The notes below the pieces were generated by a model. The model saw only the letters and a list, made by a program, of their open reading frames with translations. It did not search any database and was not told the DNA's origin. This document shows, piece after piece, positions 3,001-37,259 of a DNA stretch of 40,961 nt (positions are counted from its first letter, which is position 1; the number at the start of each line of letters is the position of its first letter). The position numbers were made by a program, and so were the translations under genes. The stretch comes from an uncultured Thermoplasmata archaeon (GTDB taxonomy: Archaea > Thermoplasmatota > Thermoplasmata > CAZPOY01): assembly GCA_964588345.1 (NCBI GenBank), contig CAZPOY010000002.1, positions 1-40,961 on the forward strand, written 5' to 3'.

Positions 3001-6000
3001 GAGACATGCCTGCAGATGCTATGAGGTTCGATGCATTGGATACGGCGAACTTGGAAACGTCAGAGCTGTGGCCGACTAGCTTCTCGTCGGCATTGACGTC
3101 AGACCAGCCGTGCACTTCCAAGAATGCTGCGGAGTACATGCCGATGTGTCCTTCGGGATAACCTGCCGTGACCTTAACCATGTCCGCATCGTTGTAAAGC
3201 GTCGGGTCAAGGCTCTGAACGAGGTTTCCGTTCCAGTCGTATATGCCGTCTTCCTTCAAAATCATCCAGTTGTCGTAATAATTGCTCGCAGGTGGTTCGA
3301 AGTTGTAATCGACTATTCCCGTCCTCTCCATCCTGTAAGCATCCGCCGTTGCAGTGGCGGAACCATCGCTCCAATCTGTCATTTCGAAGGTGTCCGTTTC
3401 GGATTCACCGGGGAACATGAGATGGGCCGTAAGCGGTGCATCGCTTCCCCTGTATTCGCCTGGATACCAGATTTCAGGGCTGACCGACACGCCACTTGTT
3501 CCGGATGCCATGTCTGTCATGGCGTCGGCGTTGGCATATCCTGCCCCCTGAACGAATGGGTCGTAGTTGATGTCGTCGGCCCCGGCCATGGCTATCTCTT
3601 TTGCCGTGTAAAGGTCGGGGTACATCGCATTGGTCTCGTAATATGCATCATAAGCAAGCGCTATGAGGCCTGCAGACAATGGCGATGAAAGACTCGTGCC
3701 GGACCATAGTTCGACGTGATAAAATCCGTCATTGGCAGGTTGTCCAAGGTCCACGTTGTGTCCCAGTGAGTTTTCATAATTCAGAAGGTCGGCTCCGAAG
3801 GCGAAAGCGCCTACGGCCAACAGGTCAACGCCCGGGTATCCTACGGTGGTAGGCCCTCTCGAAGAGAAGGAAACCACGTCGCCACCCAGCGCATTGGGTC
3901 CTCCGTCATACATTAGTTCGGGGAGCAACCTGTAGTACATGTGGCTGGCAGCGCCAATGGAAAGTACGCCTGGTGCACACGGTCCCGAAACGGAACCGTA
4001 TCCGTGTCCCTCATTGCCCGCCGAAGCGGTGAAGAGCGTGTTGCCATCTGCGTACTGGGTGCTCAGCCAATCGACGAACCGGGAGTAGTAGTCCCATCCA
4101 TCGTTGACGTATCCGTATCCAAAGGAGTTGGATGCTATGTGCGCACCGTCTCCCGTTGCGACGTCTCCGTCATAACCTTCCACGGCGAAGTACCATGCGT
4201 CGATGGTTGAACCGCCGTAAATGTCACCGATTGCCAGTATTTTCGCATCGGGGGCCATTCCCTGGACGTAAGAACGGTACGTATTGCCCTGACCCACTAC
4301 CGAAGAAGCGCAAAGAGTTCCGTGATTGGTTGCACTGCTAAGGCCAAAGTCTCCAAATAGGCAGACCAGGTCGCCGTTGCCGTAATAGTAATTGTCGAGT
4401 CCGTATCTTTCGGCATAAATGTCCGTGTATGGAATCGGTATTTCTCCGCCGTATTCGTAATTTGCGGTAACCGTTCCGCCTGGGTTGGAGAAGAACTCAA
4501 TAGTTCCATCAACGTGGTCAATGACGAACTGCTTGTAAGTATAAGTCGCTTCGATGACCTTTCCGTTGGTGATGTTCAGGTCTTCGCTCAATGATATTTC
4601 GCCTGATTCCAAATCGATGGAATAATCATCTTCAGAAATGAGGTTGCCCGAAAGGTAAAGTTCCAAGGAACCCTCCACGATGTTTTCATAATCGAGTGAA
4701 ATCTCGGTCTCGCCGCCTGAAGCAACGAGCACTTCCTCTAGAACGACATCGACAAACTCGTCATATTCTGCTGAATCGACAAAAATGGTGTATTCGTTCG
4801 GAAGAGAGATGTTTCCATTTTCGAACGCTCCAGTGTAATTCTCATCCAGCGAAATCTCTTCGCCGGTCACAAGAGTTGCAGAGGATATGTGATACAACAT
4901 TCCTCCAGAGATGTCTGAAATGCCGTCACCGTTGAGGTCGTGGCTAAGAACCTCGTCTCCGAGTATCGCCGGGTCTTCATCCGTGAAGTCCTGGTTGAAG
5001 TTCAGGTCCGAATAAACGGCATCGTAAAGCGATGCATTGGTGGAATCGACGACCATGACCGTCGGCGGAACGAAGTACTTGTTCATGAGATAGGTGTCAG
5101 GGTGGTAACCAACGTGTACCGTTCCGGATTGGCTCGTGATGCCCGTAACGATGTGGTCAACGGGGATTACGTCCAATGAAACGAATGTGATGGTGATGTC
5201 CACATAACCCGGGTCCGTGACTTCGTATCCCAAGACCTTGAGAATGTATTGGTTCTCCGTCTCGGGGTTCTTGACGGGCTCTACTATCTCGGGATTTGCC
5301 CCCGTAGAACTCTGTTCATAAGAGACGAGTTCGTCCATGGTGGCCACGCCATCTCCGTTGGCGTCATAGAATAACGCTGCATCGATGTCTGCGGCTCCGC
5401 CATGCATGTAAACCGCCATGTTCAACAAGACGGTGCCTTCGGGAACCGAGAAGTTCAAGGCGTAAGATGCGTCCTCAAAAACCGTAGGGAAGGGCTTGGC
5501 CAGCGAATCCTGATACACCTGTTGGTCGAGATACGTTTCGACGTCGGATACGGGACTTGACCGCGTGTAATTCACGATGTCCTTGTAATAATCGTAATCT
5601 GCCGTGACCACATCCAACGTGGCAAGGGGCGTGAGATACGTTATGGCCCCGGTAATGGGGTTAAGGGTATAATCGGTTCCCTCGGTCATCTCAACACCAT
5701 TCTTGTAAAGCGTCACGCTTGCCGGGTCAACGTCGAATTGGGGTTGTGGCCCCCAGTCGAGTTCTCCTGCTCCTGGTGCTTCGAACTGGTCGGCAAACCA
5801 ATCCATGAAGTTGCCCATGAGCATGGTGGCGTTGGCAGGGTCCAGATATTCAAAAGGCCACGCCGTATAAATGACCGGGCCATTGGTCGAGTTCTGGTGC
5901 AATCCGATGGAGTTTCCCAATTCATCCTCAAAACACACCGTGGAATTTGCAGCGGGCGGTATGACATCAACGAAATCCTCATTAAGGGGATACGGGCCAA

Positions 6001-7375
6001 AACCGTCGCTCAGGGGATTGCCTGCCACACCTTCTACGGAAGCGGCACCGGCATCGCTTGAGATGGCACCGATGTCAAATCCAAGATAATCGGTGTCAAA
6101 GACGTCAGGTCCGCCCTGATTTGCGTATTTGTCATAGATGTAATCCATCGAAGAAAGATAGAGCATGCCTCCGTTGTCTATGTAAGACATGAGTGCTGAC
6201 TGCGAGTCGGGCGATACCGTATTTGACCATTCAAAGAGCGTGGACCAAATGACGGCAGAGTAAGAACTTATGACTCCATATCCGGGTTCCGCCCCTTCGG
6301 CCGATACGTCCCATACGTCGTAATTGGTATAGCCAGTAGCGTCAAGCGCATCGGTAAAAACGACTTGACCGCCGTAACCTGCGTCGTCTGCAACGACTAG
6401 AATGGAGAATGAAACGTTGGTGACTTCTTCTCCTACGACGGATTCTGTGACCCTCTCAACGGGAACTTCCGTGCTCGTATCCACGTATCCACCTGAAAGT
6501 GCGCCTTCTCCTCCGACGTAATTGGGGAGTGCTATGGCATCAAACGCCATGGGCCATCCGTCATATTCGGATAGATAGGGCTTTTGAGCGATTGTTTCGT
6601 TGGAAATCGTGGATATGTCGAATCGGGCCTGGGTTCCTTCAAGGTCCGGATGTGCGAAATCGACGCCGCTGTCAACTATTGCAACGCGGACGCCTTCTCC
6701 GGTATGTCCCTTTGCCCATGCTTCTTCTGCCTTATGAGTGCTGATGGCATCGATGAGCTGGGGTTCCGGTTGGTCTCCAATTCCCGAAGAGTCATCTGAT
6801 ACTTCTCCGCGAGCGGAAAGCCGGGGTGAATCCACTTTGTAAAAGGGTTCTTCAACTTGAGATTGAGACATCTGCTCGGCAACGTCCCCTGTTGATTGAT
6901 AATGGGGGGTCGGCTGTTCGTATTGATAAACGCCATAGACCGTTTCAAGGTCAATTATGCTTGAAATGGACTTTGCCGGCAGTTCAAGAAGAGGCATTAC
7001 CAGATTATCGGTCTTCTCCGCTTTGGTGCCTATTCCGCCCTTGTAATTCACTCCTTCAAGGGTCCTTGCTAACTGGCCCACATCACTTGTCATGACGTAT
7101 ACCTTGACGGTCTCTTTTTGACCGTTCATGACCAAAGCCCGAAGATTGGGGTCGAGCTTCATGATGGGGTCCGTCTGTTCTGCTTGACTAATTATCTGTT
7201 CCTGCTCAAACGTGCTAATGGGAACACTCTCAGCGTCAAGGACGCTGGTCCCTTCCACATTGGCTTGTTCCGTGGCAGCCGATGAAAGACCGCCAGAAAG
7301 AACAACACCAAAAGTGGAAAAGACGAATGCTCCAACTATCAGCAAGCATATTTGTTTTTCAAATGCTTTATGCAT
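1..7375 (-). CDS. Giant secreted subtilisin-family (S8) serine peptidase; the C-terminus lies beyond the window start (at least 2458 codons present)
   Basis: It is missing from the supplied track because it runs off the edge. I translated the minus strand from ATG 7375-7373 (GGAGG about 8 nt upstream) down to position 2 and met no stop. The N-terminus is a signal/anchor, MHKAFEKQICLLIVGAFVFSTFGVVLSGG. Subtilase motifs: VAIVDSGVD (Asp codon 6671-6673), NHGTLCASS (His codon 4322-4324), ASAGNEGH, and WSGTSLSSP (Ser codon 3692-3694). None of the listed short ORFs in this span share its frame. Confidence 0.85.
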   Translation of the reverse strand, partial: MHKAFEKQICLLIVGAFVFSTFGVVLSGGLSSAATEQANVEGTSVLDAESVPISTFEQEQIISQAEQTDPIMKLDPNLRALVMNGQKETVKVYVMTSDVGQLARTLEGVNYKGGIGTKAEKTDNLVMPLLELPAKSISSIIDLETVYGVYQYEQPTPHYQSTGDVAEQMSQSQVEEPFYKVDSPRLSARGEVSDDSSGIGDQPEPQLIDAISTHKAEEAWAKGHTGEGVRVAIVDSGVDFAHPDLEGTQARFDISTISNETIAQKPYLSEYDGWPMAFDAIALPNYVGGEGALSGGYVDTSTEVPVERVTESVVGEEVTNVSFSILVVADDAGYGGQVVFTDALDATGYTNYDVWDVSAEGAEPGYGVISSYSAVIWSTLFEWSNTVSPDSQSALMSYIDNGGMLYLSSMDYIYDKYANQGGPDVFDTDYLGFDIGAISSDAGAASVEGVAGNPLSDGFGPYPLNEDFVDVIPPAANSTVCFEDELGNSIGLHQNSTNGPVIYTAWPFEYLDPANATMLMGNFMDWFADQFEAPGAGELDWGPQPQFDVDPASVTLYKNGVEMTEGTDYTLNPITGAITYLTPLATLDVVTADYDYYKDIVNYTRSSPVSDVETYLDQQVYQDSLAKPFPTVFEDASYALNFSVPEGTVLLNMAVYMHGGAADIDAALFYDANGDGVATMDELVSYEQSSTGANPEIVEPVKNPETENQYILKVLGYEVTDPGYVDITITFVSLDVIPVDHIVTGITSQSGTVHVGYHPDTYLMNKYFVPPTVMVVDSTNASLYDAVYSDLNFNQDFTDEDPAILGDEVLSHDLNGDGISDISGGMLYHISSATLVTGEEISLDENYTGAFENGNISLPNEYTIFVDSAEYDEFVDVVLEEVLVASGGETEISLDYENIVEGSLELYLSGNLISEDDYSIDLESGEISLSEDLNITNGKVIEATYTYKQFVIDHVDGTIEFFSNPGGTVTANYEYGGEIPIPYTDIYAERYGLDNYYYGNGDLVCLFGDFGLSSATNHGTLCASSVVGQGNTYRSYVQGMAPDAKILAIGDIYGGSTIDAWYFAVEGYDGDVATGDGAHIASNSFGYGYVNDGWDYYSRFVDWLSTQYADGNTLFTASAGNEGHGYGSVSGPCAPGVLSIGAASHMYYRLLPELMYDGGPNALGGDVVSFSSRGPTTVGYPGVDLLAVGAFAFGADLLNYENSLGHNVDLGQPANDGFYHVELWSGTSLSSPLSAGLIALAYDAYYETNAMYPDLYTAKEIAMAGADDINYDPFVQGAGYANADAMTDMASGTSGVSVSPEIWYPGEYRGSDAPLTAHLMFPGESETDTFEMTDWSDGSATATADAYRMERTGIVDYNFEPPASNYYDNWMILKEDGIYDWNGNLVQSLDPTLYNDADMVKVTAGYPEGHIGMYSAAFLEVHGWSDVNADEKLVGHSSDVSKFAVSNASNLIASAGMSLTGPGLTEVLLWDAETSDVYSIWSIGGDTGIVEMEFSEDGKYLAAADYQGFVAVYDTEMRQEVFRFYNPAYTFWGSYFLNDIQFSDDGSLLSVLPKYNWYVNQFYSMDYDVTFNESYVIDLDSGEFLSNVSAFTYGDTPTDVALDSNNMRMATIQAPVVTGWDIGLSVFDISTNPATPTHYFDLSDVSSPTTVEFSPDGSQAIVGNSTGSIFVFDLFTTAEGPVYLTDANTTLVEQEVLLDPAGTGNHTTALDNAPITDDWEIYVNGTLAPRYVHIVDENLTAENKTTENQTELNLDHLNSQWDANFHVYNVTFEWVTNEYVNHTILTNATGNETVIMLPDPVNNGTFMLFENGTMRAGYTLDEATGELNLTTAPELNATLTVTYNYTYEQTNRDEFMMSALEVNATNASFGFNLSNDFVFPGSETITVNGTTLTKDTDYTIDYVSGQVVFLATVHANDTVNVSYDYAPYSVNFATGLVTFDAPLYNNSVIWADYNYTYVFVDEMTGDIYFTDAFAGGENITANYTHYPYVDSTALPDMYIESENVMGATPTYTVDYTTGGIYFDEPLSPGDVVTATYNHYAFADYSVFGEAVSDTEVWGDHIIASAGKNATYLNYTDGSITAIYPEQSAVINSVDIAKETNRLTIGLDDGTVTEYNMTTLAEEGSFNALGSWSERNRLGYCFPNENMYEIRVSEPSAQLQDGMLIWIRDIYAEAPNTKWTVSIEFFEKTEWDWINAPASVSPGEFDVTVNVPADATPGLYEGGLHFAGGTNTAIVPIVINVASDRPVFNFGGSDDAPVLLYDNNRMYSGLGGANPDMRYYYFDTPDDFSNMPKDTMKLLVDVTYENMPSYADVLHLQQYSVGDEGGWVNNVDEFGDPVEDKGDIERYGTFVLEQSDVDAPGYFAKTGTTGGFKGLTVAPGLNAIMVTGEIMNGTFVTENISGKVGYMSLNPNPISIHTNELAGSTPVDIISTMDWQPYPYEEEDNLDQYNKALTTMVAG

Positions 7376-7463
7376 GCATCTCTCCTCCTGATTATATTCC
7401 ACTTTGGAATAGAGTCTTTTAAGACTATAATGTGAAAAAGAGAACATCCTATATATAATTTGT

Positions 7464-14936: not shown

Positions 14937-15491
14937 TCACACGGGAAGGGGGTGCTTGTGATAATCTTCTTTGACGTCGTCCGAGGTGAGGTCAAGATAT
15001 ACCTGGGTTGTTGTCAGCGATGAATGGCCTAGCATCTTTTGAACGGTCCTGAGGTTCATCCCGGCTTTCAAACAATGGACTGCGAATGAATGGCGTAGCA
15101 TGTGCGGATAAACCTTCTGTGAAATGCCGACCTGCCTTGCGTATTTGTCCACGATCCTTTCCACCTGCCTTGTCGATATCTGCTTTCCCGTGGTATTGGA
15201 GGTAATGAGTACGCCTTCCTTGGCATCCCCAATGTACATCTCGATGATGTCCAGAGTCATGTCATCAACGGGAACGACCCGGTCCTTGCCTCCCTTGCCC
15301 TGCCTTACCGTCAAGGTCCCTTCGGGAAAATCGATGTCTTCGATGTGGAGGTGGGTGAGTTCGGATACCCGGAGTCCGCATCTATACAAAATGCGGAGCA
15401 TCACTCGGTCCCTCAAATGCTCCCTATCGGGGGCTGCCAGCAATCGGCGAATGTCACGCTCTTTTAGATACTTGGGTAATTTCTTAGCCAA
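14937..15491 (-). CDS. Tyrosine recombinase/integrase, catalytic domain only (184 aa)
   Basis: RILYRCGLRVSEL (Arg I), HMLRHSFAVH (HxxR) and LGHSSLTTTQVYLD (His/Tyr) form a complete catalytic signature. The protein starts where the catalytic domain of XerA-like enzymes normally starts, so the N-terminal core-binding domain is absent. Confidence 0.8.
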   Translation of the reverse strand: MAKKLPKYLKERDIRRLLAAPDREHLRDRVMLRILYRCGLRVSELTHLHIEDIDFPEGTLTVRQGKGGKDRVVPVDDMTLDIIEMYIGDAKEGVLITSNTTGKQISTRQVERIVDKYARQVGISQKVYPHMLRHSFAVHCLKAGMNLRTVQKMLGHSSLTTTQVYLDLTSDDVKEDYHKHPLPV

Positions 15492-24426: not shown

Positions 24427-27420
24427 ATGCCTCACGAAGAGGAAGAGATCTGCCGCATCGACCATGATTCGGAACTCATTACGAGATTTCACGACTATCA
24501 AGACCTGATGCGTTTCCGAGTCAGCGACGTTCTCCTCGTTTCGAGTCTCTACGATGCCTTCATCCTTGAGGAGGACGGCGGTCTTTCCGAACAGATATAC
24601 GGGAAATACAAAGACCTGGACCTCTCTTCTCCTCCACGCATAAACCGCGTTTCAACGAGCAAAGAGGCATTCGAAGAAATAAGCAAACGTCATTACGACC
24701 TTGTCATCACAATGTCCCGGATTAGCGATTCGGACCCCTTTGAATTCGGCAAAAAGGTCAAGGAGATGGCCCCGGGAACGCCGGTTGTACTTCTTGCCAC
24801 GGATGCGTCTGACCTGCGACACGTATATGAACCGGGCAGCAAGAACGGCATCGACAAGACATTCTTCTGGACCGGTGATTCGACCCTCTTTCTGGCCATC
24901 ATCAAATACATCGAGGACAAGCAGAACATCCAACTGGACACGCGCAAAGCCATGGTGAGGGTCATACTCGTCATCGAGGACTCGCCCCGCTATTATTCGA
25001 TGTTCCTTCCCATCATCTATACAGAAATAATGAACCAGACCCAGCAATTGATATCCGAAGGATTGAACGAGCATGAAAAATTGTTGCGCAGACGGGCCAG
25101 GCCCAAGATTGTCCTTGCTGAGACGTTGGCAGAAGCAAGGAGCAAGTTCGAAAAGTACAGGGAATACGTCATGGGCGTCATCACCGACATCCATTATCCC
25201 AAGGGCAAAGGCGGAGACAAGTTGGACGAGGCAGGTTTCGACTTCATCGAATCCATCGACAAGGAAATTCCCGTTTTGTTGCAATCCTCCATGAACGAAT
25301 ATAGAGAGAAGGCGGAGGAACTGGGGATACCCTTCATCAACAAGAACTCGGAAAGAATCGGACATCATCTCAAAACCTTCTTCAACGAGAATCTTGGCTT
25401 CGGCGATTTCATCTTCAGGATGGAGGACGGGCGCGGAGTGGGAAGGGCCAGAGACATGAAGGATTTCGAGGATGTGATATTCAACATCCCCCTGGAATCA
25501 CTCCGCTTCCACGGTGAAAAAAATCACTTCAGCAACTGGCTCAACGCCCGGGGCGAGTTTAAACTGGCCAACCGCCTCCGGTCGAAAAAGGTGAGCGATT
25601 TCACGGACGAAGCCGAGATGCGGGATTTCCTAGCCGACATCCTCAGGCAGACCCGACGGGAAAAGCACGTAGGCATCATCACGGATTTCGGCCAGCAGAT
25701 GTTCGAATTTGAAGAGACTTTTACCAAATTCAGTTCCGGGTCCCTTGGAGGCAAAGGTCGGGGCATCGCATTTCTTTCCGACATCATGCACAAGTCCAAT
25801 GTCAAGGAGAGATTTCCCAATTGCCACATCAAGGTCCCTGAAACCCTCGTGCTGGCGACGGACGAGTTCGACCGCTTCATCAATGAGAACGAACTGAGCA
25901 ACCTTCTGGAGGAAACGATTGAGGACGGAAAGCTCCGTGAGAAATTCATACGGTGCACCCTCTCGGAAGAACTCCAAGAATCCCTTCGACGTTATCTTCA
26001 GCACGTCAATGAGCCCCTCGCCGTCCGGTCCTCAAGTCTGCTGGAAGATTCCCAGAACCAGCCCTTTGCAGGCATCTATTCCACCTACATACTGCCCAAC
26101 AACCACCCGGACCCCAAGGTCAGGCATAAGCAATTGTCCGACGCCGTCAAACTCGTTTATTCCTCAGTATATCAGAAGGACGCCAAGTCGTACATACAAA
26201 CGACGCTCCACAAAAGCGAAGAGGAGAAGATGGCCGTGGTCATACAGAAGCTTGTGGGCAACCGATGGGGGAGGTATTTTTACCCCGTCTTCTCCGGCGT
26301 GGGGCAGTCATTCAATTTCTATCCGGTCAAACCTCTAAAACGCGAAGAAGGCATCGTGAGCGTCGCCCTGGGCATGGGAAAGATAGTCGTTGAAGGCGGC
26401 AAGGTCCTCAGCTTCAGCCCCAGGCACCCAAAGGTCATTCCAGGTTTTTCCAGCACGAAAGACATTCTCGAAAACTCCCAGAAACATTTCTTCGCCCTGG
26501 ACATGGAGAAGAAGGATTTTGACCTTACCGAAGGCGAGGACGTAACACTTGCCCAACTCAACATAGACATGGCTGACAAAGACGGAAACCTGGACCTTCT
26601 GGCAAGCACCTACGACCCACAGGACGACAAGATAAGAGATACCTCCCAGGGCAAGGGAGCCAAGATAATCACCTTTGCCGGCATACTCAAGCACGAACAG
26701 TTCCCCCTTCCCAAATTGATAGAGAACGTGCTCATCATCGGAGAAGAAGGCATGGGTTCCCCCGTGGAAATCGAATTCGCCGCAAGAATGGTCGAAACGG
26801 GCCACCCCGAACTCTACATCGTGCAGATACGGCCTTTGGTAACCATGAAGGAGCACAACAATGTTTCCGTGAGGGACGAGGACCGGAACTTGGCTTTCGT
26901 ATACACTAACAAAGCCCTGGGGAACGGCATCAACGATTCCATCCGAGACATCATCTACGTACCTCCGGAAAAATTCGACAGGACCGATACGCTGACCATC
27001 GCTGAAGAGATAGGTGAGTTGAACCAGGCATTGGGCGCTGAACCGTTCCTTCTCATAGGGCCGGGAAGATGGGGGACCAACGACAGGCATCTGGGAATTC
27101 CGGTCCGGTGGAATCAGATATCTGGCGCTTCGATGATCGTCGAGGTTTCGCTGAAAGACTTCCGCATCGACCCGTCACATGGGAGCCACTTCTTCCACAA
27201 CATGACCTCACTTGGAATACCATATTTCACCGTTCCCTATGGCGAAGACAAATCATTCGTGGATTGGGAATGGCTCAATTCCATGAAACCGGCCCATTCA
27301 ACAAGATACTGCCACCACCTGAGGTTGAAAATGCCCGTGGTTGGCAAGGTTAACGGCAAGGAGGGGGTGGGAGTCATCTTGAGAAGTGACGTGAATGACG
27401 ACACCGCCGATGATGAGTAA
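24427..27420 (+). CDS. PEP/pyruvate-binding (PPDK N-terminal ATP-grasp-like) protein with two N-terminal receiver-like modules
   Basis: GSLGGKGRGIAFL and LAVRSSSLLEDSQNQPFAGIYSTY are typical of the PEP synthase/PPDK nucleotide-binding domain. The N-terminus has VLLVSS...DLVITMS and ILVIEDS...GVITDIHYP...VLLQSS, which look like CheY-fold strands. Confidence 0.7.
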   Translation: MPHEEEEICRIDHDSELITRFHDYQDLMRFRVSDVLLVSSLYDAFILEEDGGLSEQIYGKYKDLDLSSPPRINRVSTSKEAFEEISKRHYDLVITMSRISDSDPFEFGKKVKEMAPGTPVVLLATDASDLRHVYEPGSKNGIDKTFFWTGDSTLFLAIIKYIEDKQNIQLDTRKAMVRVILVIEDSPRYYSMFLPIIYTEIMNQTQQLISEGLNEHEKLLRRRARPKIVLAETLAEARSKFEKYREYVMGVITDIHYPKGKGGDKLDEAGFDFIESIDKEIPVLLQSSMNEYREKAEELGIPFINKNSERIGHHLKTFFNENLGFGDFIFRMEDGRGVGRARDMKDFEDVIFNIPLESLRFHGEKNHFSNWLNARGEFKLANRLRSKKVSDFTDEAEMRDFLADILRQTRREKHVGIITDFGQQMFEFEETFTKFSSGSLGGKGRGIAFLSDIMHKSNVKERFPNCHIKVPETLVLATDEFDRFINENELSNLLEETIEDGKLREKFIRCTLSEELQESLRRYLQHVNEPLAVRSSSLLEDSQNQPFAGIYSTYILPNNHPDPKVRHKQLSDAVKLVYSSVYQKDAKSYIQTTLHKSEEEKMAVVIQKLVGNRWGRYFYPVFSGVGQSFNFYPVKPLKREEGIVSVALGMGKIVVEGGKVLSFSPRHPKVIPGFSSTKDILENSQKHFFALDMEKKDFDLTEGEDVTLAQLNIDMADKDGNLDLLASTYDPQDDKIRDTSQGKGAKIITFAGILKHEQFPLPKLIENVLIIGEEGMGSPVEIEFAARMVETGHPELYIVQIRPLVTMKEHNNVSVRDEDRNLAFVYTNKALGNGINDSIRDIIYVPPEKFDRTDTLTIAEEIGELNQALGAEPFLLIGPGRWGTNDRHLGIPVRWNQISGASMIVEVSLKDFRIDPSHGSHFFHNMTSLGIPYFTVPYGEDKSFVDWEWLNSMKPAHSTRYCHHLRLKMPVVGKVNGKEGVGVILRSDVNDDTADDE

Positions 27421-32845: not shown

Positions 32846-33073
32846 ATGGGCAACGGAGGCCTGCTGAGAGGGCTCAAGTTCATGGGAATCGTCCCGAAAT
32901 CCCTTCCCCTTGCAGTCAAGATGGGAGGAAGCATCGTCAAGCTCAAGCTCGCATCAAGGAAAGCTTCCAAAACCTTCAAAAAGGAGCTGGAAAAGCAAGG
33001 GCTTGACTACGAAACGGCTGAAGCCCTGGCCGACATCTACAAGAAGGGTGCGGACCTGGATTTCGGGGACTGA
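32846..33073 (+). CDS. Small protein sharing a C-terminal motif with 32514..32834
   Basis: A GGGAGG sequence lies upstream. FKKELEKQGLDYETAEALADIYK parallels FYKELKASGMTDAEAFALTQQYM in the preceding gene. Confidence 0.45.
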   Translation: MGNGGLLRGLKFMGIVPKSLPLAVKMGGSIVKLKLASRKASKTFKKELEKQGLDYETAEALADIYKKGADLDFGD

Positions 33074-33345
33074 ATTTTTTCTTTTGATTTTCTTCATTTT
33101 ATATTTTTTCCGATTCGAATTTTTCCATTTTTCATTGTTATTGGGTGGGTATAAGCACATCGAAGAATGGTGGACGGTAGGTTGGCGGGAAATATATCAC
33201 TAATTTTTTTATTTCCATTAAGCACCCATGTGAAAGCGCATCAATCATGCAATTAGTGGGGGAGGAAACCAACGATCCCTAGTTGGCCTTTAGTCGATTC
33301 AAATGAATGAAAGAATAAATAGCGTACAATCGAATTACTCTTTGA

Positions 33346-33663
33346 ATGCCCTACTATGTTTATGTGATAGAACTGGACCTTTCTGTAACGGAATCAAAGA
33401 AATTCATGCGCAGGAACAAAAAAATGAAGAAAGGGAAAAAGTGCTTTTATGTGGGGCAAAGCGCCAAGAAGCCAAAAGAGAGATTTAATCAACATTTGAC
33501 TGGTTACAAGTCTAATTATTTCGCAAGAGAATACGGAATGAAATTAAGGAAATGGTGGGTATGGCGGATTAACCCATTAAAAACACGTAAAGAAGCAGAA
33601 AAGGAAGAGAAAAAGCTTGCTAAGAAATTGAAGAACAAGGGTTATGGTGTTTGGTGGGGATGA
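33346..33663 (+). CDS. GIY-YIG nuclease-domain protein (stand-alone, 105 aa)
   Basis: YYVYVIEL (GIY-like) ... CFYVGQS (YIG-like) ... RFNQH ... a conserved Glu within KEAEKEEKKL. It sits in AT-rich surroundings. Confidence 0.6.
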   Translation: MPYYVYVIELDLSVTESKKFMRRNKKMKKGKKCFYVGQSAKKPKERFNQHLTGYKSNYFAREYGMKLRKWWVWRINPLKTRKEAEKEEKKLAKKLKNKGYGVWWG

Positions 33664-33736
33664 GAAAATCCGTTCACTCAGTTTTTCCAATCATAAATAT
33701 TATATCTCCCTCCAACTTCTCAACCCTTGCACAATC

Positions 33737-33931
33737 GGAGAGGTAACAGAGCCCGGTCATGTGGGGGACTTCAACCCAAAAAAATTGGGTCTCACTCAAC
33801 CTTCCCCTGCGGAGAAGGATTCGTTGCAGACGGAAGTTTCCGGCTGATATCCTCATACAGGAGTTCAAACCACGCCCAATCCTACGGATTTGGCTTGCTC
33901 GCGAATAAATACGCTCGTCTCCTCCTCTCCA
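33737..33931 (+). tRNA. tRNA-like gene, interrupted copy: three blocks identical to the downstream copy, separated by 55-nt and 48-nt inserts
   Basis: Blocks 33737-33770, 33826-33869 and 33918-33931 are 34/34, 44/44 and 14/14 identical to 33976-34067. The inserts are 33771-33825 (right after U33 of the anticodon loop) and 33870-33917 (inside the T-loop, TTCAAA|T). An ATAAATATTATAT TATA-like box lies upstream. Confidence 0.5.
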
Positions 33932-33975
33932 ACAACAAAAAGATTAAGATTAACCTTCCAATTCACAAGCAAAAA

Positions 33976-34067
33976 GGAGAGGTAACAGAGCCCGGTCATG
34001 TGGGGGACTGCAGACGGAAGTTTCCGGCTGATATCCTCATACAGGAGTTCAAATCTCCTCCTCTCCA
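33976..34067 (+). tRNA. tRNA-like gene with 26 nt in place of the 7-nt anticodon loop; anticodon GCA (Cys) if a 19-nt intron is removed at position 37/38
   Basis: Manual fold: acceptor GGAGAGG/CCTCTCC; U8; D-arm ACA-G-AGCCCGGTC-A-TGT; anticodon stem GGGGA/TCCTC; variable loop ATAC; T-arm AGGAG-TTCAAAT-CTCCT; discriminator A. An oligo-T tract follows at 34068-34073. The A73 and the absence of a clean bulge-helix-bulge keep the identity uncertain. Confidence 0.6.
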
Positions 34068-34080
34068 TTTTTTCATATTT

Positions 34081-34290
34081 TTAGAGAAAAAATGACAGAG
34101 GATTAGACGGGAAAACGACGTTTTCCCTTACTCCTCCTCTCCAGAATAATGTAGTTATTTTATTAGAAAAAATGACAGAGGCATCAACGGGAAAACGGGG
34201 TTTTCCCTTACTCCTCCTCTCCAAGAATGACACATTGGAATTGTTTTTAGAAAAAATGAATGAGGATTCGTTGAGGATTTCGCAGAAATC
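34081..34290 (+). repeat. Three tandem units of about 83 bp (starts 34081, 34163, 34247). The first two end in the tRNA 3' 13-mer CTCCTCCTCTCCA preceded by a conserved 8-bp hairpin
   Basis: Each unit begins TTAGA(G)AAAAAATGA. The hairpins are GGGAAAAC-GAC-GTTTTCCC (34109-34127) and GGGAAAAC-GGG-GTTTTCCC (34189-34207). The 13-mer occurs at 34131-34143 and 34211-34223 and is identical to 33919-33931 and 34055-34067. The third unit has diverged but carries AGGATTCGTTG, which is also found at 33816-33826. Confidence 0.8.
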
Positions 34291-34327
34291 ATCGACGAAA
34301 CTAATCTTTGATTGGTTCCAACCCAAT

Positions 34328-34479
34328 CTTGACATGTCAAGCTTAGGTTTCACCCCAAATTTGACAAGCAAATCTGGTTTTTACTCAACTTTGCCATGCT
34401 TCTTTTTTATGATATGTCAAAGTTGCGTTTCACTCGACTTTGACAGAAATACCCTAATAAATGTCAAAGTCGCGTTCCA
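34328..34479. promoter_or_regulatory. Cluster of TGTCAA/TTGACA-based sites (palindrome, inverted repeat, direct repeat)
   Basis: There is a perfect 14-nt palindrome CTTGACATGTCAAG at 34328-34341 and a TTGACA at 34361-34366. ATGTCAAAGTTGCGTTTCA (34414-34432) and ATGTCAAAGTCGCGTTCCA (34461-34479) match 17/19. TGTCAAAGT and ACTTTGACA form a 9-bp inverted repeat within 34415-34445. Confidence 0.6.
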
Positions 34480-34534
34480 AACTGAAAATTTCGTTCTTAC
34501 ACAACCTATGATGTCCCTGAACATCACGATTTTT

Positions 34535-34666
34535 TTACTTTGTATCTTTTTTATCATTACCCTCTTTCAGCCACTTTGCATACATCTCAATGAATTTTAG
34601 ACGCTCTTGGAAATTCTTTTTCTTTTGAGCGTCAAGTTCCTCAAGGTCCACTTTTGGAAATGTCAT
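34535..34666 (-). CDS. Mini-ORF (43 aa), hypothetical
   Basis: My own translation gives MTFPKVDLEELDAQKKKNFQERLKFIEMYAKWLKEGNDKKDTK. It is translationally coupled (TAAATG) to the preceding mini-ORF. Confidence 0.3.
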   Translation of the reverse strand: MTFPKVDLEELDAQKKKNFQERLKFIEMYAKWLKEGNDKKDTK

Positions 34667-34771
34667 TTAAGATGCCTCCAATACTTCAATGAAGTCAAGC
34701 ACGAATTTGTCTAAAGATTCCAGGTTTCTTTTTATTTGATAACCCGAATCCTTTTTTTCAATCTTCATCAT
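34667..34771 (-). CDS. Mini-ORF (34 aa), hypothetical
   Basis: My own translation gives MMKIEKKDSGYQIKRNLESLDKFVLDFIEVLEAS. Its stop TAA is directly followed by the ATG of the next mini-ORF. It is below the track's length cutoff. Confidence 0.25.
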   Translation of the reverse strand: MMKIEKKDSGYQIKRNLESLDKFVLDFIEVLEAS

Positions 34772-34878
34772 CCTATAGAAAGAATGGAATTCATGATATT
34801 TCAAATTGACTATTAAGCTTCATATTTTTCCCACCTATTGCACATGAAGGTTTTCCAATATCACCTCCACCTGACCAA

Positions 34879-35058
34879 TCAATGCCTTCCAATCCGGTCG
34901 GTTTTTTCTTGGAATGTAATGATTTGTGGATTTTGCTACAATTCCCGGGTCCATCCATTCATTGCTTCTATTACGTCGGTTGAAAATATGACCCCCTTTT
35001 CCGGGACTATGTCCAGTATGTTTCGTTCAACGGGGGAAAGGTAGTAATTTTTCTGCAT
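34879..35058 (-). pseudogene. Possible decayed small HTH-like gene with an in-frame TAG
   Basis: MQKNYYLSPVERNILDIVPEKGVIFSTDVIEAMNGWTREL, then TAG (34936-34938), then QNPQIITFQEKTDRIGRH and TGA. Further 8-10 codon ORF fragments follow downstream, which suggests decay. Confidence 0.25.
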
Positions 35059-35264
35059 TAAATAATTGATATGGTTATTAACTAAATAAATTCAACTACT
35101 TTGAGAATATTGTATTATTCGTAAATCATACATTTCATCAATTTTTCATGGTTATGTCTGTCTGATAGATTGTATGTTGAGTACAGATATATCCCTTCTT
35201 CTCATGACTAATTAATCTAACGGATAACTGTACACTGACAGGGAGTTTAATCACTCCTCCCAGG

Positions 35265-35771
35265 ATGGAGAAGGTTTTGCCTGAACTTGAACGGTGGTTG
35301 AAAGAATATCGGAAAAGAGACATCGAAGGAGAGGAGGTTTTCAGATTGGGGGCTTGGATGCATTACGAATTTGAAAGGATTCACACCTTTGCAGACGGAA
35401 ACGGCAGAATAGGACGGCTTTTATTGAATCTCCATCTTATTAAAAGAAACTGGCCTCCGGTTCACGTTCTTCCCATGCATCGAAACGATTATCTTCACGG
35501 GCTGAACGAGGCTTCAAACGGTGATTTCAATGAACTTGAGAACCTGTTGAAGGTCTTGATGGCTTCCAGTCTCCTGGACCTCCTTGACCAGATTGGGACA
35601 TCCAAGGATGAACTCTTGCCCTTGAAGGCATTTACGGAATCAACTTCATACAGTTCCCAATATCTCGCTCTCAGATGCAAGCAGGGAAAATTCCCGGCTC
35701 TCAAGGAAAGAGGCGAATGGCGGACTACGAAAAGGGCCTTGGAATTATATACAAAGCATATTGCAAGGTAG
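35265..35771 (+). CDS. Fic-domain protein (AMPylase family), N-terminally short, with a C-terminal HTH-like tail
   Basis: HTFADGNGRIGR matches the Fic motif HxFx(D/E)GNGRxxR. Only 41 residues precede the motif, and the frame is closed by TGA at 35205-35207. Confidence 0.8.
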   Translation: MEKVLPELERWLKEYRKRDIEGEEVFRLGAWMHYEFERIHTFADGNGRIGRLLLNLHLIKRNWPPVHVLPMHRNDYLHGLNEASNGDFNELENLLKVLMASSLLDLLDQIGTSKDELLPLKAFTESTSYSSQYLALRCKQGKFPALKERGEWRTTKRALELYTKHIAR

Positions 35772-35855
35772 AGATATATCACTTTGAAATTCAAAATTAT
35801 CCCATAAATATCCCACCAAAAACTAATAATCCATCCCGCTTTTGACCTTCTGGAG

Positions 35856-37259
35856 ATGAAGATGTCACTCAAGGTCTACAATACAGCGACCCGTGAAAAA
35901 GAAGAGTTCGTGCCTGTAAACGACAAGAAAGTGGGCATGTACGTTTGTGGCGTCACGGTTTACGACCACTCTCACATCGGGCACGCCCGTTCATATGTTG
36001 CCTTCGACGTCATCAGAAGATATCTCGAATACAAGGGATACGACGTCACATACATTCAGAATTTCACCGATGTCGACGACAAGATTATCAAAAAAGCCAA
36101 AGAATCTGAAAGGAATGCCCTTGAAATCAGTTCCGAATACATCGATTCCTACATGGAGGACATGCACCGGCTGAATGTAATGGACGCAAACCATTATCCC
36201 AAGGCCAGCGAGTTCATCCCGGAGATGATAAGTGTCGTCGAAGACCTCATCGAGAAGGGTCACGCATACGAATCCGACGGCGACGTTTATTTCTCGCTCA
36301 CATCGGCCCTGGACCGTTTCGGAACCCTTACCCATCAATCACCCGAAGACATGATGGCTGGTGCAAGAGTTTGCGTGACCGATGCGAAAAAAGACCCCCG
36401 GGATTTCGCCCTTTGGAAGAAAGCCAAACCCGGTGAAATAAAGTGGGACAGCCCCTGGGGAGAAGGACGGCCTGGCTGGCACATCGAATGTTCCACCATG
36501 TCCACCCATTACCTCGGACCCACCCTCGACATCCACGGGGGAGGGCAGGACCTGATGTTCCCACATCACGAATCCGAAATTCTGCAAAGCGAATGCCACA
36601 CGGGAGAAAATTACTGCAAGTACTGGTTACACAACGGCTTTGTCCAGATTAACCAGGAGAAGATGAGCAAGTCCCTGGGCAATTTCTTCACCATCAAGGA
36701 AATTCTGAAAAAGTATCACCCCATGGCCCTGAGGTTTTTCCTGGTTTATACGCATTACCGGTCCCCCATCGATTTTTCCGACGAGCACATGGACGAAGCG
36801 GGCAAGAGTTACCAGCGACTTAAGAGAACCTATCTCGACCTAAAGGAATTTGAAGCGTGCGGTGAGAGCGTGGACCTCATAGACGAAAGCAAGAATGCTC
36901 TTGAGGATTTCGAAGGGGGGATGAACGACGACTTCAACACAAGGGACGCCCTTGCCGCCACTTTCGATCTTGTGAGGAAGGTCAATCAGTCTTTGAATCA
37001 GAATCGCATTTCTCAAGATGAAAAAGAGCACCTCTTGAGCGTTTTCGACAAGATGTGGTCGGTCTATGGTTTCACATTCGAAGAAGAGAAGGCCGAGGGG
37101 CTTGAAGAAGACCTCATCAAGTTGATGCTTGAGATACGTGAAAAAGCAAGAGAGAACAAGCAGTGGGATACCGCCGATGCGATCCGTGATGGACTTTTAG
37201 ACCTGGGAATCCTCATCGAGGATTCGGACCAAGGCCCCAAGTGGCGCATGGAGGAGTAA
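35856..37259 (+). CDS. cysS: Cysteine--tRNA ligase
   Basis: It has an LKVYNT N-terminus, HIGHARSY (the HIGH motif), KMSKS and the WHIECS zinc-site region. Confidence 0.95.

What the first reader, a model, noticed from the sequence alone, without database searches (positions are those of the whole stretch)
33737..34067. Tandem tRNA-like genes with 92/92 identical blocks, one copy interrupted by 55-nt and 48-nt inserts
The downstream copy (33976-34067) folds into a cloverleaf-compatible structure. The upstream copy (33737-33931) contains the same 92 nt in three blocks with no mismatch. It is broken right after U33 by 55 nt that form two internal hairpins (CCCAA-AAAAA-TTGGG and CCTTCCCC-TGC-GGAGAAGG), and inside the T-loop (TTCAAA|T, about position 59/60) by 48 nt with the hairpin CCAATCC-TAC-GGATT(T)GG. 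Perfect identity across the blocks argues against a decaying pseudogene. It is compatible with a multi-intron tRNA gene of the kind known mainly from Thermoproteales-type archaea, or with a very recent disruption by small mobile inserts. I could not draw canonical bulge-helix-bulge motifs at the junctions, so any splicing would need a relaxed-specificity endonuclease.
Basis: partly seen in the sequence, partly recalled or inferred. Interest (0 to 1): 0.7.

Follow-up and report, generated by a model that had tools for sequence, protein, structure and literature searches.

The report
Tandem tRNA-Cys genes, one doubly interrupted
Two neighbouring copies of an archaeal cysteine-tRNA gene share identical coding blocks and one ordinary intron, but the first copy carries two extra inserts with no known splice signal, so it is either an unusual three-intron gene or a freshly broken duplicate.

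Summary
Blocks 33737-33770, 33826-33869 and 33918-33931 join to give exactly the 92 nt at 33976-34067.

The contig is archaeal. Its best named relatives are Thermoplasmatota, and nothing close is in the databases.

It is a 73-nt tRNA-Cys(GCA) with discriminator A73, plus a 19-nt intron at the canonical 37/38 site (34014-34032). That intron has the best bulge-helix-bulge (BHB) motif in the region.

The upstream copy has the same exons and the same intron. It also has a 55-nt insert between U33 and G34, inside the central helix of that BHB, and a 48-nt insert at T-loop position 59/60. Neither insert has a BHB or a relaxed half-motif above chance. Neither has another copy in the window or any relative found elsewhere.

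The case for a maintained three-intron gene:
- the exons are identical while the flanks have diverged;
- both insertions are clean, lie in loops and fold better than shuffles;
- the two genes look co-transcribed.

The case for a disrupted duplicate:
- no splice motif at either insert;
- euryarchaeal affinity;
- an intact copy 44 nt away, in an AT-rich, repeat-scarred locus.

I favour the three-intron gene only slightly (0.42 against 0.35). RNA data would decide.

The parts
33976..34067 (+). Downstream tRNA-Cys(GCA) gene: 73-nt tRNA plus one canonical intron. Discriminator is A73. A T6 run follows directly (34068-34073).
   Evidence: Rfam RF00005 scores 46 bits, E = 1.6e-8. ARAGORN calls tRNA-Cys(gca) once the intron is removed. 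The only intact T-arm/acceptor combination in the window is at this locus.
34014..34032 (+). 19-nt canonical intron (37/38) of the downstream gene, with an hBHBh' motif. Central helix is CUGC/GCUG (3 of 4 pairs, one U.U). Bulges are AG|A and AU|A. Inner hairpin is CGGAA/UUCCG. Outer helix is the anticodon stem.
   Evidence: Top-scoring BHB of all cut-site pairs in the gene. Reciprocal half-motifs score 8/9.
33737..33931 (+). Upstream tRNA-Cys copy, 195 nt. Same exons and same canonical intron, plus two extra inserts. No T-run before the next gene.
   Evidence: Not detected by ARAGORN or Rfam.
33737..33770 (+). Exon block 1 (tRNA positions 1-33): acceptor 5' strand, D-arm, anticodon-stem 5' strand, C32 and U33.
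   Evidence: 34/34 identical to 33976-34009.
33771..33825 (+). Insert 1, 55 nt, between U33 and G34 (or 32/33). Two hairpins. Unique in the window.
   Evidence: Fold z = -2.1. No BHB or half-motif above null.
33826..33869 (+). Exon block 2 (G34-A59), including the 19-nt canonical intron at 33830-33848.
   Evidence: 44/44 identical to 34010-34053.
33870..33917 (+). Insert 2, 48 nt, in the T-loop between A59 and U60. This is the loop position that corresponds to 37/38. One strong hairpin. Unique in the window.
   Evidence: Fold z = -2.1. The outer helix (T-stem) has the right geometry, but the central helix pairs at only 1 of 4 positions.
33918..33931 (+). Exon block 3 (U60-A73): T-stem 3' strand, acceptor 3' strand and discriminator.
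   Evidence: 14/14 identical to 34054-34067.
33687..33736 (+). Upstream flank of copy 1, with an A/T-rich TATA-like stretch (ATAAATATTATAT, 33693-33705). Weakly similar to the 44-nt spacer.
   Evidence: Read. Flank-to-flank local alignment gives p about 0.007 by shuffling. Promoter function is inferred, not shown.
33932..33975 (+). 44-nt spacer between the two genes. It is the upstream flank of copy 2. It has no oligo-T terminator, so co-transcription is likely.
   Evidence: Similar to 34339-34372 (p < 0.001).
34076..34223 (+). Two tandem 80-nt repeats (87% identical). Each ends in the tRNA's 3'-terminal 13-mer and folds into a hairpin that leaves a CCA overhang. A third partial unit lies at 34244-34268.
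   Evidence: Apart from the 13-mer there is no similarity to the tRNA.

Best explanation
This is a two-gene tRNA-Cys(GCA) locus in an uncultured archaeon whose best named relatives are Thermoplasmatota.

The downstream gene is ordinary. It encodes a 73-nt tRNA interrupted at 37/38 by a 19-nt intron. The archaeal splicing endonuclease can recognise that intron through a standard bulge-helix-bulge (BHB) motif.

The upstream gene is a maintained paralogue with the same exons and the same intron. It also carries two intervening sequences, 55 nt at 33/34 and 48 nt at 59/60. These would have to be removed from the RNA to give the same tRNA.

Both genes are probably transcribed as one precursor. The inferred path runs from the A/T-rich element near 33693-33705, through the terminator-less 44-nt spacer, to the T6 run at 34068.

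Insert 1 splits the central helix of the canonical BHB. It would therefore have to be removed before the 37/38 intron can be cut.

Shown: exon and intron identity, the canonical BHB, clean loop insertions, archaeal context.

Inferred: transcription, selection on both copies, and excision of the two extra inserts. The recognition mechanism is unknown, because neither insert has a BHB.
For: 1. 92/92 identity across three blocks, with identity starting exactly at tRNA position 1 and ending at 73. The flanks are at best about 70% alike with indels (p about 0.007). This is the usual pattern for paralogous tRNA genes that are kept, not for a drifting pseudogene. At the 13% divergence seen between the neighbouring 80-nt repeats, 92 unchanged sites would have probability about 3e-6.
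2. Both interruptions are exact. No target base is lost or duplicated. Two independent DNA accidents of that kind, with no point change, are unlikely. An RNA-level process acting at these junctions, whether gain or loss, explains them more simply.
3. Both lie in 7-nt loops. 59/60 is the structural equivalent of 37/38: five-base-pair stem, then a cut after loop nucleotide 6.
4. Each insert folds better than its shuffles (z = -2.1; 4/200 and 6/200 shuffles fold as well).
5. There is no oligo-T between the copies, and T6 follows the second.
6. Multi-intron tRNA genes are documented in some Euryarchaeota (M. kandleri, M. thermautotrophicus; PMC4033280). In the intron-rich Asgard genomes, structure-template drawing (R2DT) showed additional introns that tRNAscan-SE had not detected (PMC11291895).
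Against: 1. No hBHBh', hBH or HBh' motif at either insert. Full-motif scores are 6-8, against 14 for the canonical intron and 12-14 for the best off-target pairs. Half-motif scores of 7/9 equal the mode of random positions. No motif appears after removing the other interruptions in silico.
2. Insert 1 interrupts the canonical BHB.
3. The best named relatives are Thermoplasmata. Euryarchaeal alpha4/alpha'2 endonucleases are reported to cut only canonical BHB introns (PMC4090602, PMC4033280, PMC5829648).
4. The cloverleaf-constrained fold of the precursor is 8.8 kcal/mol worse than its free fold.
5. A complete gene lies 44 nt away, so the upstream copy is dispensable.
6. No relative could be found to test conservation.
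Confidence: 0.42

Rival explanations
1. The upstream copy is a non-functional, recently disrupted or mosaic duplicate. It would have arisen by recombination at a tRNA locus that serves as a hotspot for mobile DNA, for example by exchange with an insert-bearing tRNA-like attachment site. It is carried along in the leader of the working gene's transcript and is never matured.
For: No splice motif at either insert, and insert 1 destroys the canonical BHB. Euryarchaeal affinity (PMC4090602). An intact gene with its own terminator lies 44 nt downstream. The locus lies in an AT-rich island, 37-42% GC against about 50% elsewhere. That island holds two further copies of the tRNA's 3' 13-mer, tandem 80-nt repeats, repeated promoter-like flanks, fragmentary small ORFs and a Fic-domain ORF that matches only the C-terminal part of the Pfam domain model. 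Anticodon loop and T-loop are the classic crossover sites of tRNA-targeting integrases (my own knowledge, not checked here). A published model derives tRNA introns and fragments from integration of mobile elements (PMC3293823).
Against: Zero substitutions in 92 nt, with identity bounded exactly by the mature tRNA ends. There are no direct repeats or target duplications at the insert borders. No integrase is nearby; the only tyrosine-recombinase ORF is 18 kb away. Only 44 nt lie between the copies, so no element body is present. The inserts have no other copy in the window and no real match in viral contigs.
Confidence: 0.35
2. Assembly artefact: two alleles of one tRNA-Cys locus in the sampled population, one with inserts and one without, were threaded in series by the metagenome assembler.
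For: The window is a whole metagenome contig of 40,961 nt with no second copy in the databases. Population heterogeneity in tRNA intron content is documented (PMC3293823).
Against: The longest shared block is 45 nt, which I expect to be shorter than the final k-mers of common assemblers (my assumption; the assembly method is unknown). The 44-nt spacer and both outer flanks are unique sequence, so a chimeric path has no long repeat to jump across. Reads were not available.
Confidence: 0.07
3. The upstream gene makes a different product, for example a Cys-bodied tRNA with the anticodon UCA that insert 1 creates (CU|UCA A), a selenocysteine tRNA, or a half of a split or permuted tRNA.
For: Insert 1 begins with TCA directly after U33. 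ARAGORN at very low stringency labels 33736-33844 as 'SeC(tca)'. A CysRS gene lies 1.8 kb downstream.
Against: Joining CUUCAA to the canonical 3' site gives a central helix with only 2 of 4 pairs. The alternative stems in insert 1 give no BHB (my reading of the sequence; no such cut-site pair appears among the top BHB candidates). There is no 9/4 or 8/5 acceptor/T geometry, no 6-bp D-stem, no long variable arm and no G73. There is no leader/trailer complementarity with the 13-mer repeats. The low-stringency ARAGORN run returned 104 calls across the 41-kb window.
Confidence: 0.03

Closest known systems
Multiple-intron tRNA genes of Crenarchaeota/Thermoproteales, e.g. Pyrobaculum islandicum tRNA-Pro(UGG) with introns at 25/26, 37/38 and 56/57 (PMC4090602)
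   Same: One canonical and two non-canonical interruptions in one tRNA gene. Exact removal restores a cloverleaf. One interruption is in the T-arm region.
   Different: Those introns carry BHB, hBH or HBh' motifs and occur in lineages with (alpha-beta)2 endonucleases. Here neither extra insert has any such motif, and the best named relatives are Thermoplasmatota.
Multiple-intron tRNA genes in Euryarchaeota: Methanopyrus kandleri and Methanothermobacter thermautotrophicus (listed in PMC4033280). From memory, the M. thermautotrophicus case is a tRNA-Pro with introns at 32/33 and 37/38.
   Same: A euryarchaeal tRNA gene with more than one intron. If my recollection is right, it also has a second intron in the anticodon loop next to the canonical one, implying ordered splicing.
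   Different: Those introns are reported as BHB-type, whereas no BHB can be formed here. The sequence comparison was not made; the positions are recalled, not checked.
tRNA-Thr(GGU) locus heterogeneity in Caldiarchaeum subterraneum (PMC3293823)
   Same: Copies or fragments of one tRNA gene, differing in intron number, lie in direct repeat at one locus. They are interpreted as intron gain through recombination with a mobile element.
   Different: There a 1.8-kb recombinase-bearing insertion separates the copies, and the variants sit on different clones. Here two full copies are 44 nt apart on one contig with no recombinase.
Intron-rich tRNA genes of Atabeyarchaeia and Freyarchaeia (PMC11291895)
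   Same: Many tRNA genes have 2-4 introns at non-canonical sites, some seen only by structure-template drawing and not by tRNAscan-SE. The Atabeyarchaeia-1 tRNA-Cys(GCA) is also 92 nt with one intron and a low Infernal score (41.6).
   Different: That is a different phylum. This window's CysRS is only 54-56% identical to the Freyarchaeia and Lokiarchaeia proteins among the hits, and its thermosome points to Thermoplasmatota. No sequence comparison of the tRNAs was possible.

Membership tests
tRNA (Rfam RF00005), isoacceptor Cys | Cloverleaf with 7-bp acceptor stem, 5-bp T-stem, UUCRANY T-loop, G53-C61, U8, A14, G18G19 | tested here: met
   Downstream gene scores 46 bits against a gathering score of 29. 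ARAGORN draws the cloverleaf after intron removal. The upstream copy has the same 73 nt once its three interruptions are removed.
tRNA (Rfam RF00005), isoacceptor Cys | Anticodon GCA with G37 | tested here: met
   The loop is CUGCAGA after removal of 34014-34032.
tRNA (Rfam RF00005), isoacceptor Cys | U73 discriminator, an identity element for CysRS and SepRS (PMC8762117) | tested here: not met
   Both copies have A73. A73 tRNA-Cys is reported in Methanolobus and Methanocella (PMC8762117), so this is unusual but has precedent.
Archaeal BHB-type tRNA intron | Archaeal host | tested here: met
   Thermosome, archaeal/eukaryotic primase small and large subunits, MtrA/MtrH. Best named homologues are archaeal.
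Archaeal BHB-type tRNA intron | hBHBh' motif: 4-bp helix between two 3-nt bulges, cut after the second bulge base. Tested on the 19-nt intron at 37/38. | tested here: met
   Best-scoring pair of cut sites in the gene (score 14; central helix 3/4, outer helix 5, inner helix 4). Reciprocal 8/9 half-motifs.
Archaeal BHB-type tRNA intron | hBHBh' motif at insert 1 (33771-33825) | tested here: not met
   At 33/34 the central helix pairs 3/4, the outer helix has 1 pair and the inner helix none. At 32/33 the values are 3/4, 0 and 2. Both are below many off-target pairs. Nothing improves after removing the other interruptions.
Archaeal BHB-type tRNA intron | hBHBh' motif at insert 2 (33870-33917) | tested here: not met
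   The outer helix (T-stem) is present with correct spacing, but the central helix UUCA/CGCU pairs at 1 of 4 positions and there is no inner helix.
Archaeal BHB-type tRNA intron | Relaxed half-motif (hBH or HBh') at each splice site | tested here: inconclusive
   The best contiguous partners score 7/9 at three of the four insert junctions, in either register of insert 1; the 3' junction of insert 2 reaches 8/9, but only with a partner inside the downstream gene copy (7/9 within the upstream copy). 7/9 is the mode for random positions, and 138 of 400 random positions reach 8/9 or more. The partners are not reciprocal. The test has little power against weak true motifs.
Archaeal BHB-type tRNA intron | A splicing endonuclease able to cut non-canonical sites ((alpha-beta)2 or epsilon2) encoded by the genome | not testable with these tools
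   No tRNA-intron endonuclease domain was found among the window ORFs scanned. The rest of the genome is not available.
Archaeal BHB-type tRNA intron | Spliced RNA with exon-exon junctions | not testable with these tools
   No transcript data.
Integrated element at a tRNA gene (att-site remnants) | Direct repeat of part of the tRNA flanking foreign DNA, with an integrase gene next to it | tested here: inconclusive
   There are two extra direct copies of tRNA positions 61-73 and an AT-rich island. No integrase lies within 18 kb, and no repeats border either insert.
Split or permuted tRNA genes | Leader/trailer complementarity forming an intermolecular BHB; 3' half preceding 5' half | tested here: not met
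   The 13-mer repeat units share nothing else with the tRNA or the inserts. The exon order is colinear.
tRNA-Sec / UGA-decoding tRNA | 9/4 or 8/5 acceptor/T geometry, long variable arm, extended D-stem, UCA anticodon in a 7-nt loop | tested here: not met
   The acceptor/T body is 7/5 with a 4-nt variable loop. UCA could enter the loop only through a cut-site pair without a BHB (2 of 4 central pairs, my reading of the sequence; absent from the top candidates).

The most novel reading that the evidence does not exclude
An archaeon whose best named relatives are Thermoplasmatota maintains a tRNA gene whose two non-canonical intervening sequences have no bulge-helix-bulge signal yet are removed precisely from the RNA. 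One lies inside the central helix of the canonical intron's BHB and the other in the T-loop. That would imply a way of recognising tRNA introns that is not covered by the known endonuclease rules, or an obligatory multi-step pathway. The intron-poor sister gene alongside would be a snapshot of intron gain or loss.
Probability: 0.3. Interest if true: 0.7.

Novelty: new variant of a known kind. Interest (0 to 1): 0.45.

Why it matters
Disrupted tRNA genes are the main evidence in the debate on how tRNA introns arise and spread.

This locus holds both states of the same gene side by side, with and without two extra interruptions, and not a single exon difference. That is rare material for asking whether such interruptions are gained from mobile DNA or lost through RNA intermediates.

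If the upstream copy is spliced, it shows non-canonical, motif-less introns outside the lineages where they are expected. It also shows that standard tRNA finders miss them. ARAGORN and Rfam with default filters missed even the ordinary copy here.

If it is not spliced, it is a rare example of a very young tRNA pseudogene, and the finding is ordinary.

Tried and rejected
1. ARAGORN, default and with introns, finds no tRNA in the window. Rfam at gathering thresholds finds nothing. Only the permissive local run found the downstream gene.
2. Relatives:
   - The CysRS-based genome scan gave only distant bacteria.
   - Exact-protein look-ups failed.
   - The nearest CysRS homologues (59%) and GIY-YIG homologues (55-62%) show no tRNA-Cys synteny.
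   - A 20-nt D-arm pattern hit 7 metagenome stretches. The one I could read was a chance match inside GC-rich sequence; the other six could not be read in that run.
   - Five viral-contig scans gave nothing or two isolated chance matches.
3. The inserts as repeats or mobile elements: no other copy in the window, no similarity to each other, and no terminal inverted repeats or target duplications (read from the sequence).
4. The GIY-YIG ORF 73 nt upstream as a homing endonuclease: rejected. It belongs to a conserved 105-aa archaeal family that normally sits next to an IF-2B-family gene with no tRNA nearby.
5. UCA-anticodon, tRNA-Sec, split-tRNA and permuted-tRNA readings: no supporting structure.
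6. Self-cleaving ribozymes or box C/D RNAs in the inserts: no Rfam hit, even at E up to 10.
7. A 7+12-nt similarity between the insert 1/exon junction and the Fic active-site coding sequence is locally notable (score 28 against a null maximum of 24). By my extrapolation it is not significant window-wide.
8. Stop-codon reassignment as the reason for the ORF-poor first 7.4 kb: no coherent signal.

Full report
**Observation.** The three blocks 33737-33770, 33826-33869 and 33918-33931 join to give exactly the 92 nt at 33976-34067 (repeat families D2, D3 and D5). They are separated by 55 nt (33771-33825) and 48 nt (33870-33917). Each insert folds better than its dinucleotide shuffles (z = -2.1 for both; 4/200 and 6/200 shuffles fold as well). 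The boundary of the first insert can slide by one base.

**What the downstream copy is.** ARAGORN finds no tRNA anywhere in the window, with or without its intron option. Rfam with default filters finds nothing either. Reading the sequence shows why. Between the anticodon-stem strands GGGGA and UCCUC lie 26 nt, not 7.

Removing ACGGAAGTTTCCGGCTGAT (34014-34032) leaves a 73-nt molecule that ARAGORN draws as tRNA-Cys(GCA). It has a 7-bp acceptor stem, a 5-bp T-stem, a UUCAAAU T-loop and a 4-nt variable loop.

A scan of all cut-site pairs for the archaeal bulge-helix-bulge (BHB) geometry ranks exactly this pair first. The central helix is C32-U33-G34-C35 against GCUG, with 3 of 4 pairs and one U.U. 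The bulges are AG|A and AU|A. The inner hairpin is CGGAA/UUCCG, and the outer helix is the anticodon stem. This matches the textbook layout, in which the first two anticodon bases lie in the central helix (PMC4090602).

A permissive local Rfam run then scores the gene at 46 bits against the tRNA model (gathering score 29, E = 1.6e-8). So the '92-nt tRNA' is a 73-nt tRNA with a canonical 19-nt intron.

The discriminator is A73. U73 is the usual identity element for tRNA-Cys, but A73 variants exist in Methanolobus and Methanocella (PMC8762117). A CysRS gene lies 1.8 kb downstream (35856-37259).

**Host.** The window is a whole 40,961-nt contig of 49% GC. It encodes a thermosome, both archaeal primase subunits, CysRS, MtrA, MtrH and other housekeeping proteins.

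The best named thermosome homologues are all Thermoplasmata, Thermoplasmatota or Methanomassiliicoccales MAGs at 66-71% identity. Two unnamed hits on short contigs reach 80%. The nearest CysRS is 59% identical.

The organism is therefore an uncultured archaeon that looks most like Thermoplasmatota and has no close relative in the databases. This assignment rests on best hits only.

**The upstream copy.** It carries the same exons and the same 19-nt intron (33830-33848), plus two inserts.

Insert 1 lies between U33 and G34, in the middle of the 4-bp central helix of the canonical BHB. As transcribed, the outer helix of that motif is lost. Insert 2 lies between A59 and U60. That is the T-loop position structurally equivalent to 37/38: a five-pair stem, with the cut after the sixth loop base.

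I tested for splice motifs in four ways:
1. **Full BHB scan of the 195-nt precursor**. The observed junctions do not appear among the top candidates. Scoring them by hand from the layouts gives about 7-8 for insert 1 and 6 for insert 2, against 14 for the canonical intron.
2. **Explicit layout of each junction**. Insert 1 has a central helix of 3/4 but essentially no outer or inner helix. Insert 2 has the T-stem as a correct outer helix, but its central helix UUCA/CGCU pairs at 1 of 4 positions.
3. **Relaxed half-motifs (hBH, HBh') anywhere in the putative dicistronic transcript**. The best partners score 7/9 at three of the four insert junctions; the 3' junction of insert 2 reaches 8/9 only with a partner in the downstream gene copy. 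7/9 is the mode for random positions, and about a third of random positions do better. The partners are not reciprocal. The canonical intron scores a reciprocal 8/9.
4. **Refolding after removing the other interruptions in silico**. No BHB appears.

The cloverleaf-constrained fold is 8.8 kcal/mol worse than the free fold. By every rule known for archaeal splicing endonucleases, the two extra inserts have no signal.

**Origin of the inserts.** They have no other copy in the window and are not similar to each other. They show no terminal inverted repeats or target duplications. They match no Rfam family, even at E up to 10. Their only hits in viral contigs are two isolated chance matches.

**Relatives.** All routes failed:
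- A CysRS-based scan of species-representative genomes found only distant bacteria.
- A 20-nt D-arm pattern hit seven metagenome stretches. The one I could read was a chance match in GC-rich sequence; the others could not be read in that run.
- Contigs carrying the nearest CysRS homologues have no adjacent tRNA-Cys.
- The 105-aa GIY-YIG protein encoded 73 nt upstream (Pfam 25 bits) belongs to a small conserved archaeal family. Elsewhere it sits next to an IF-2B-family gene with no tRNA nearby. I do not regard it as a homing endonuclease tied to the inserts.

No comparative test of conservation was possible.

**Locus context.** The tRNA pair lies in an AT-rich island. Windows 33-36 kb have 37-42% GC, against about 50% elsewhere.

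The 13-mer CTCCTCCTCTCCA (positions 61-73) occurs twice more downstream, at 34131 and 34211. Each copy forms the end of a tandem 80-nt repeat (87% identical). Each repeat folds into a hairpin with a CCA overhang. By my comparison of the two units, the differences fall in unpaired segments. A third partial unit follows. Apart from the 13-mer, the repeats share nothing with the tRNA.

The upstream flank of copy 2 resembles the upstream flank of copy 1 weakly (p about 0.007). It resembles a third sequence at 34339-34372 more clearly (p < 0.001). Further downstream lie TTGACA/TGTCAA palindromes, fragmentary small ORFs without family hits and a Fic-domain ORF that matches only the C-terminal part of the Pfam domain model. 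No integrase is near; the only tyrosine-recombinase ORF is at 14937-15491.

There is no oligo-T between the two tRNA copies, and a T6 run follows the second. This suggests one transcript.

**Weighing the explanations: for a maintained, spliced three-intron gene.**
- Identity is perfect over 92 nt and stops exactly at the mature ends, while the flanks have diverged. This is how functional tRNA paralogues normally look.
- Two clean insertions with no point change are hard to obtain by neutral DNA accidents.
- If the interrupted copy was imported by one recombination event, the donor must itself have kept perfect exons around the inserts.
- Both inserts lie in loops and are moderately structured.

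**For a dead duplicate.**
- There is no splice motif at all.
- The canonical BHB is disrupted.
- Euryarchaeal endonucleases are described as strict (PMC4090602, PMC4033280, PMC5829648).
- An intact gene lies 44 nt away.
- The neighbourhood is scarred.

Precedents cut both ways. Multiple-intron tRNAs exist in M. kandleri and M. thermautotrophicus (PMC4033280). In Atabeyarchaeia and Freyarchaeia, R2DT revealed additional introns that tRNAscan-SE had not detected (PMC11291895). In Caldiarchaeum, intron gain at a tRNA locus has been tied to a mobile element (PMC3293823).

My estimates are 0.42 for the three-intron gene, 0.35 for the disrupted duplicate, 0.07 for an assembly chimera and 0.03 for a different RNA product. 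The remainder is unassigned. Excision of the two inserts is inferred, not shown.

**Novelty and interest.** Multi-intron and disrupted tRNA genes are a known kind. This would be a new variant because of three features: the lack of any BHB, the apparent euryarchaeal host, and the side-by-side intron-rich and intron-poor copies with identical exons. If the dead-duplicate reading is right, it is of minor interest. If the upstream copy is spliced, it is of real interest to tRNA-processing specialists. It can be tested directly with reads and RNA from the source sample.

Noticed in passing
window 34076-34268: Two tandem 80-nt units (87% identical) plus a third partial unit, in an A-B-A-B-A arrangement. 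Each full unit ends in the tRNA's 3'-terminal 13-mer. Each folds into a GGGAAAAC/GUUUUCCC hairpin inside an AGAGG(A)/(U)CCUCU stem, leaving a 3' CCA overhang (rep1 z = -3.95). By my comparison of the two units, the differences fall in unpaired segments. This could be a small structured RNA, an att-site remnant or a minihelix-like element.
   Followed up: partly
window 33000-36000: AT-rich island (37-42% GC against about 50% elsewhere). It covers the GIY-YIG gene, the tRNA pair, the repeats, fragmentary small ORFs and the Fic-domain ORF. It may be a remnant of foreign or decaying DNA at the tRNA locus.
   Followed up: partly
window 34320-34480: Cluster of TTGACA/TGTCAA palindromes and three copies of a 19-mer similar to ATGTCAAAGTYGCGTTYCA. 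It looks like an operator or protein-binding array. No gene assignment.
   Followed up: no
window 33976-34067 and 35856-37259: The tRNA-Cys has discriminator A73 instead of the near-universal U73, and a CysRS gene lies 1.8 kb downstream. A73 variants elsewhere are reported to go with changes in the acceptor-binding region of CysRS (PMC8762117). That was not examined here.
   Followed up: partly
window 35374-35400 vs 33814-33835: The Fic active-site coding sequence (AAGGATTCACACCTTTGCAGACGGAA, encoding ...HTFADG...) shares AAGGATT and TTGCAGACGGAA with the insert 1/exon 2 junction of the upstream copy. The local score is 28 against a null maximum of 24. By my extrapolation it is not significant across the whole window. 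Probably chance, though microhomology-mediated copying is conceivable.
   Followed up: partly
window 33346-33663: A 105-aa GIY-YIG domain protein from a small conserved family (about 80 database members, all near 105 aa). In related archaeal contigs it sits convergent with an IF-2B-family gene. Here that neighbour is replaced by the tRNA locus.
   Followed up: yes
window 1-7400: Only short ORFs (none over about 200 aa), and no Pfam hit for the seven ORFs tested, in a region of normal GC. Treating TGA, TAG or TAA as sense does not give one coherent reading frame. Content unexplained.
   Followed up: partly
window 14937-15491 (-): A 184-aa ORF that is only the catalytic domain of a tyrosine recombinase (Phage_integrase, E = 5e-45). 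It lies between the primase small-subunit gene and a KaiC-like ATPase. It may be a truncated or mis-started Xer/integrase gene.
   Followed up: no
window 24427-27420 (+): A 997-aa protein combining a PPDK_N (ATP-grasp, PEP-utilising) domain with a weak response-regulator receiver match. An unusual architecture.
   Followed up: no
whole window: Method caveat. ARAGORN (with or without introns) and Rfam with default filters both miss the bona fide intron-containing tRNA-Cys. Only a permissive local cmscan or manual intron removal finds it. tRNA counts for such lineages may be underestimated.
   Followed up: yes
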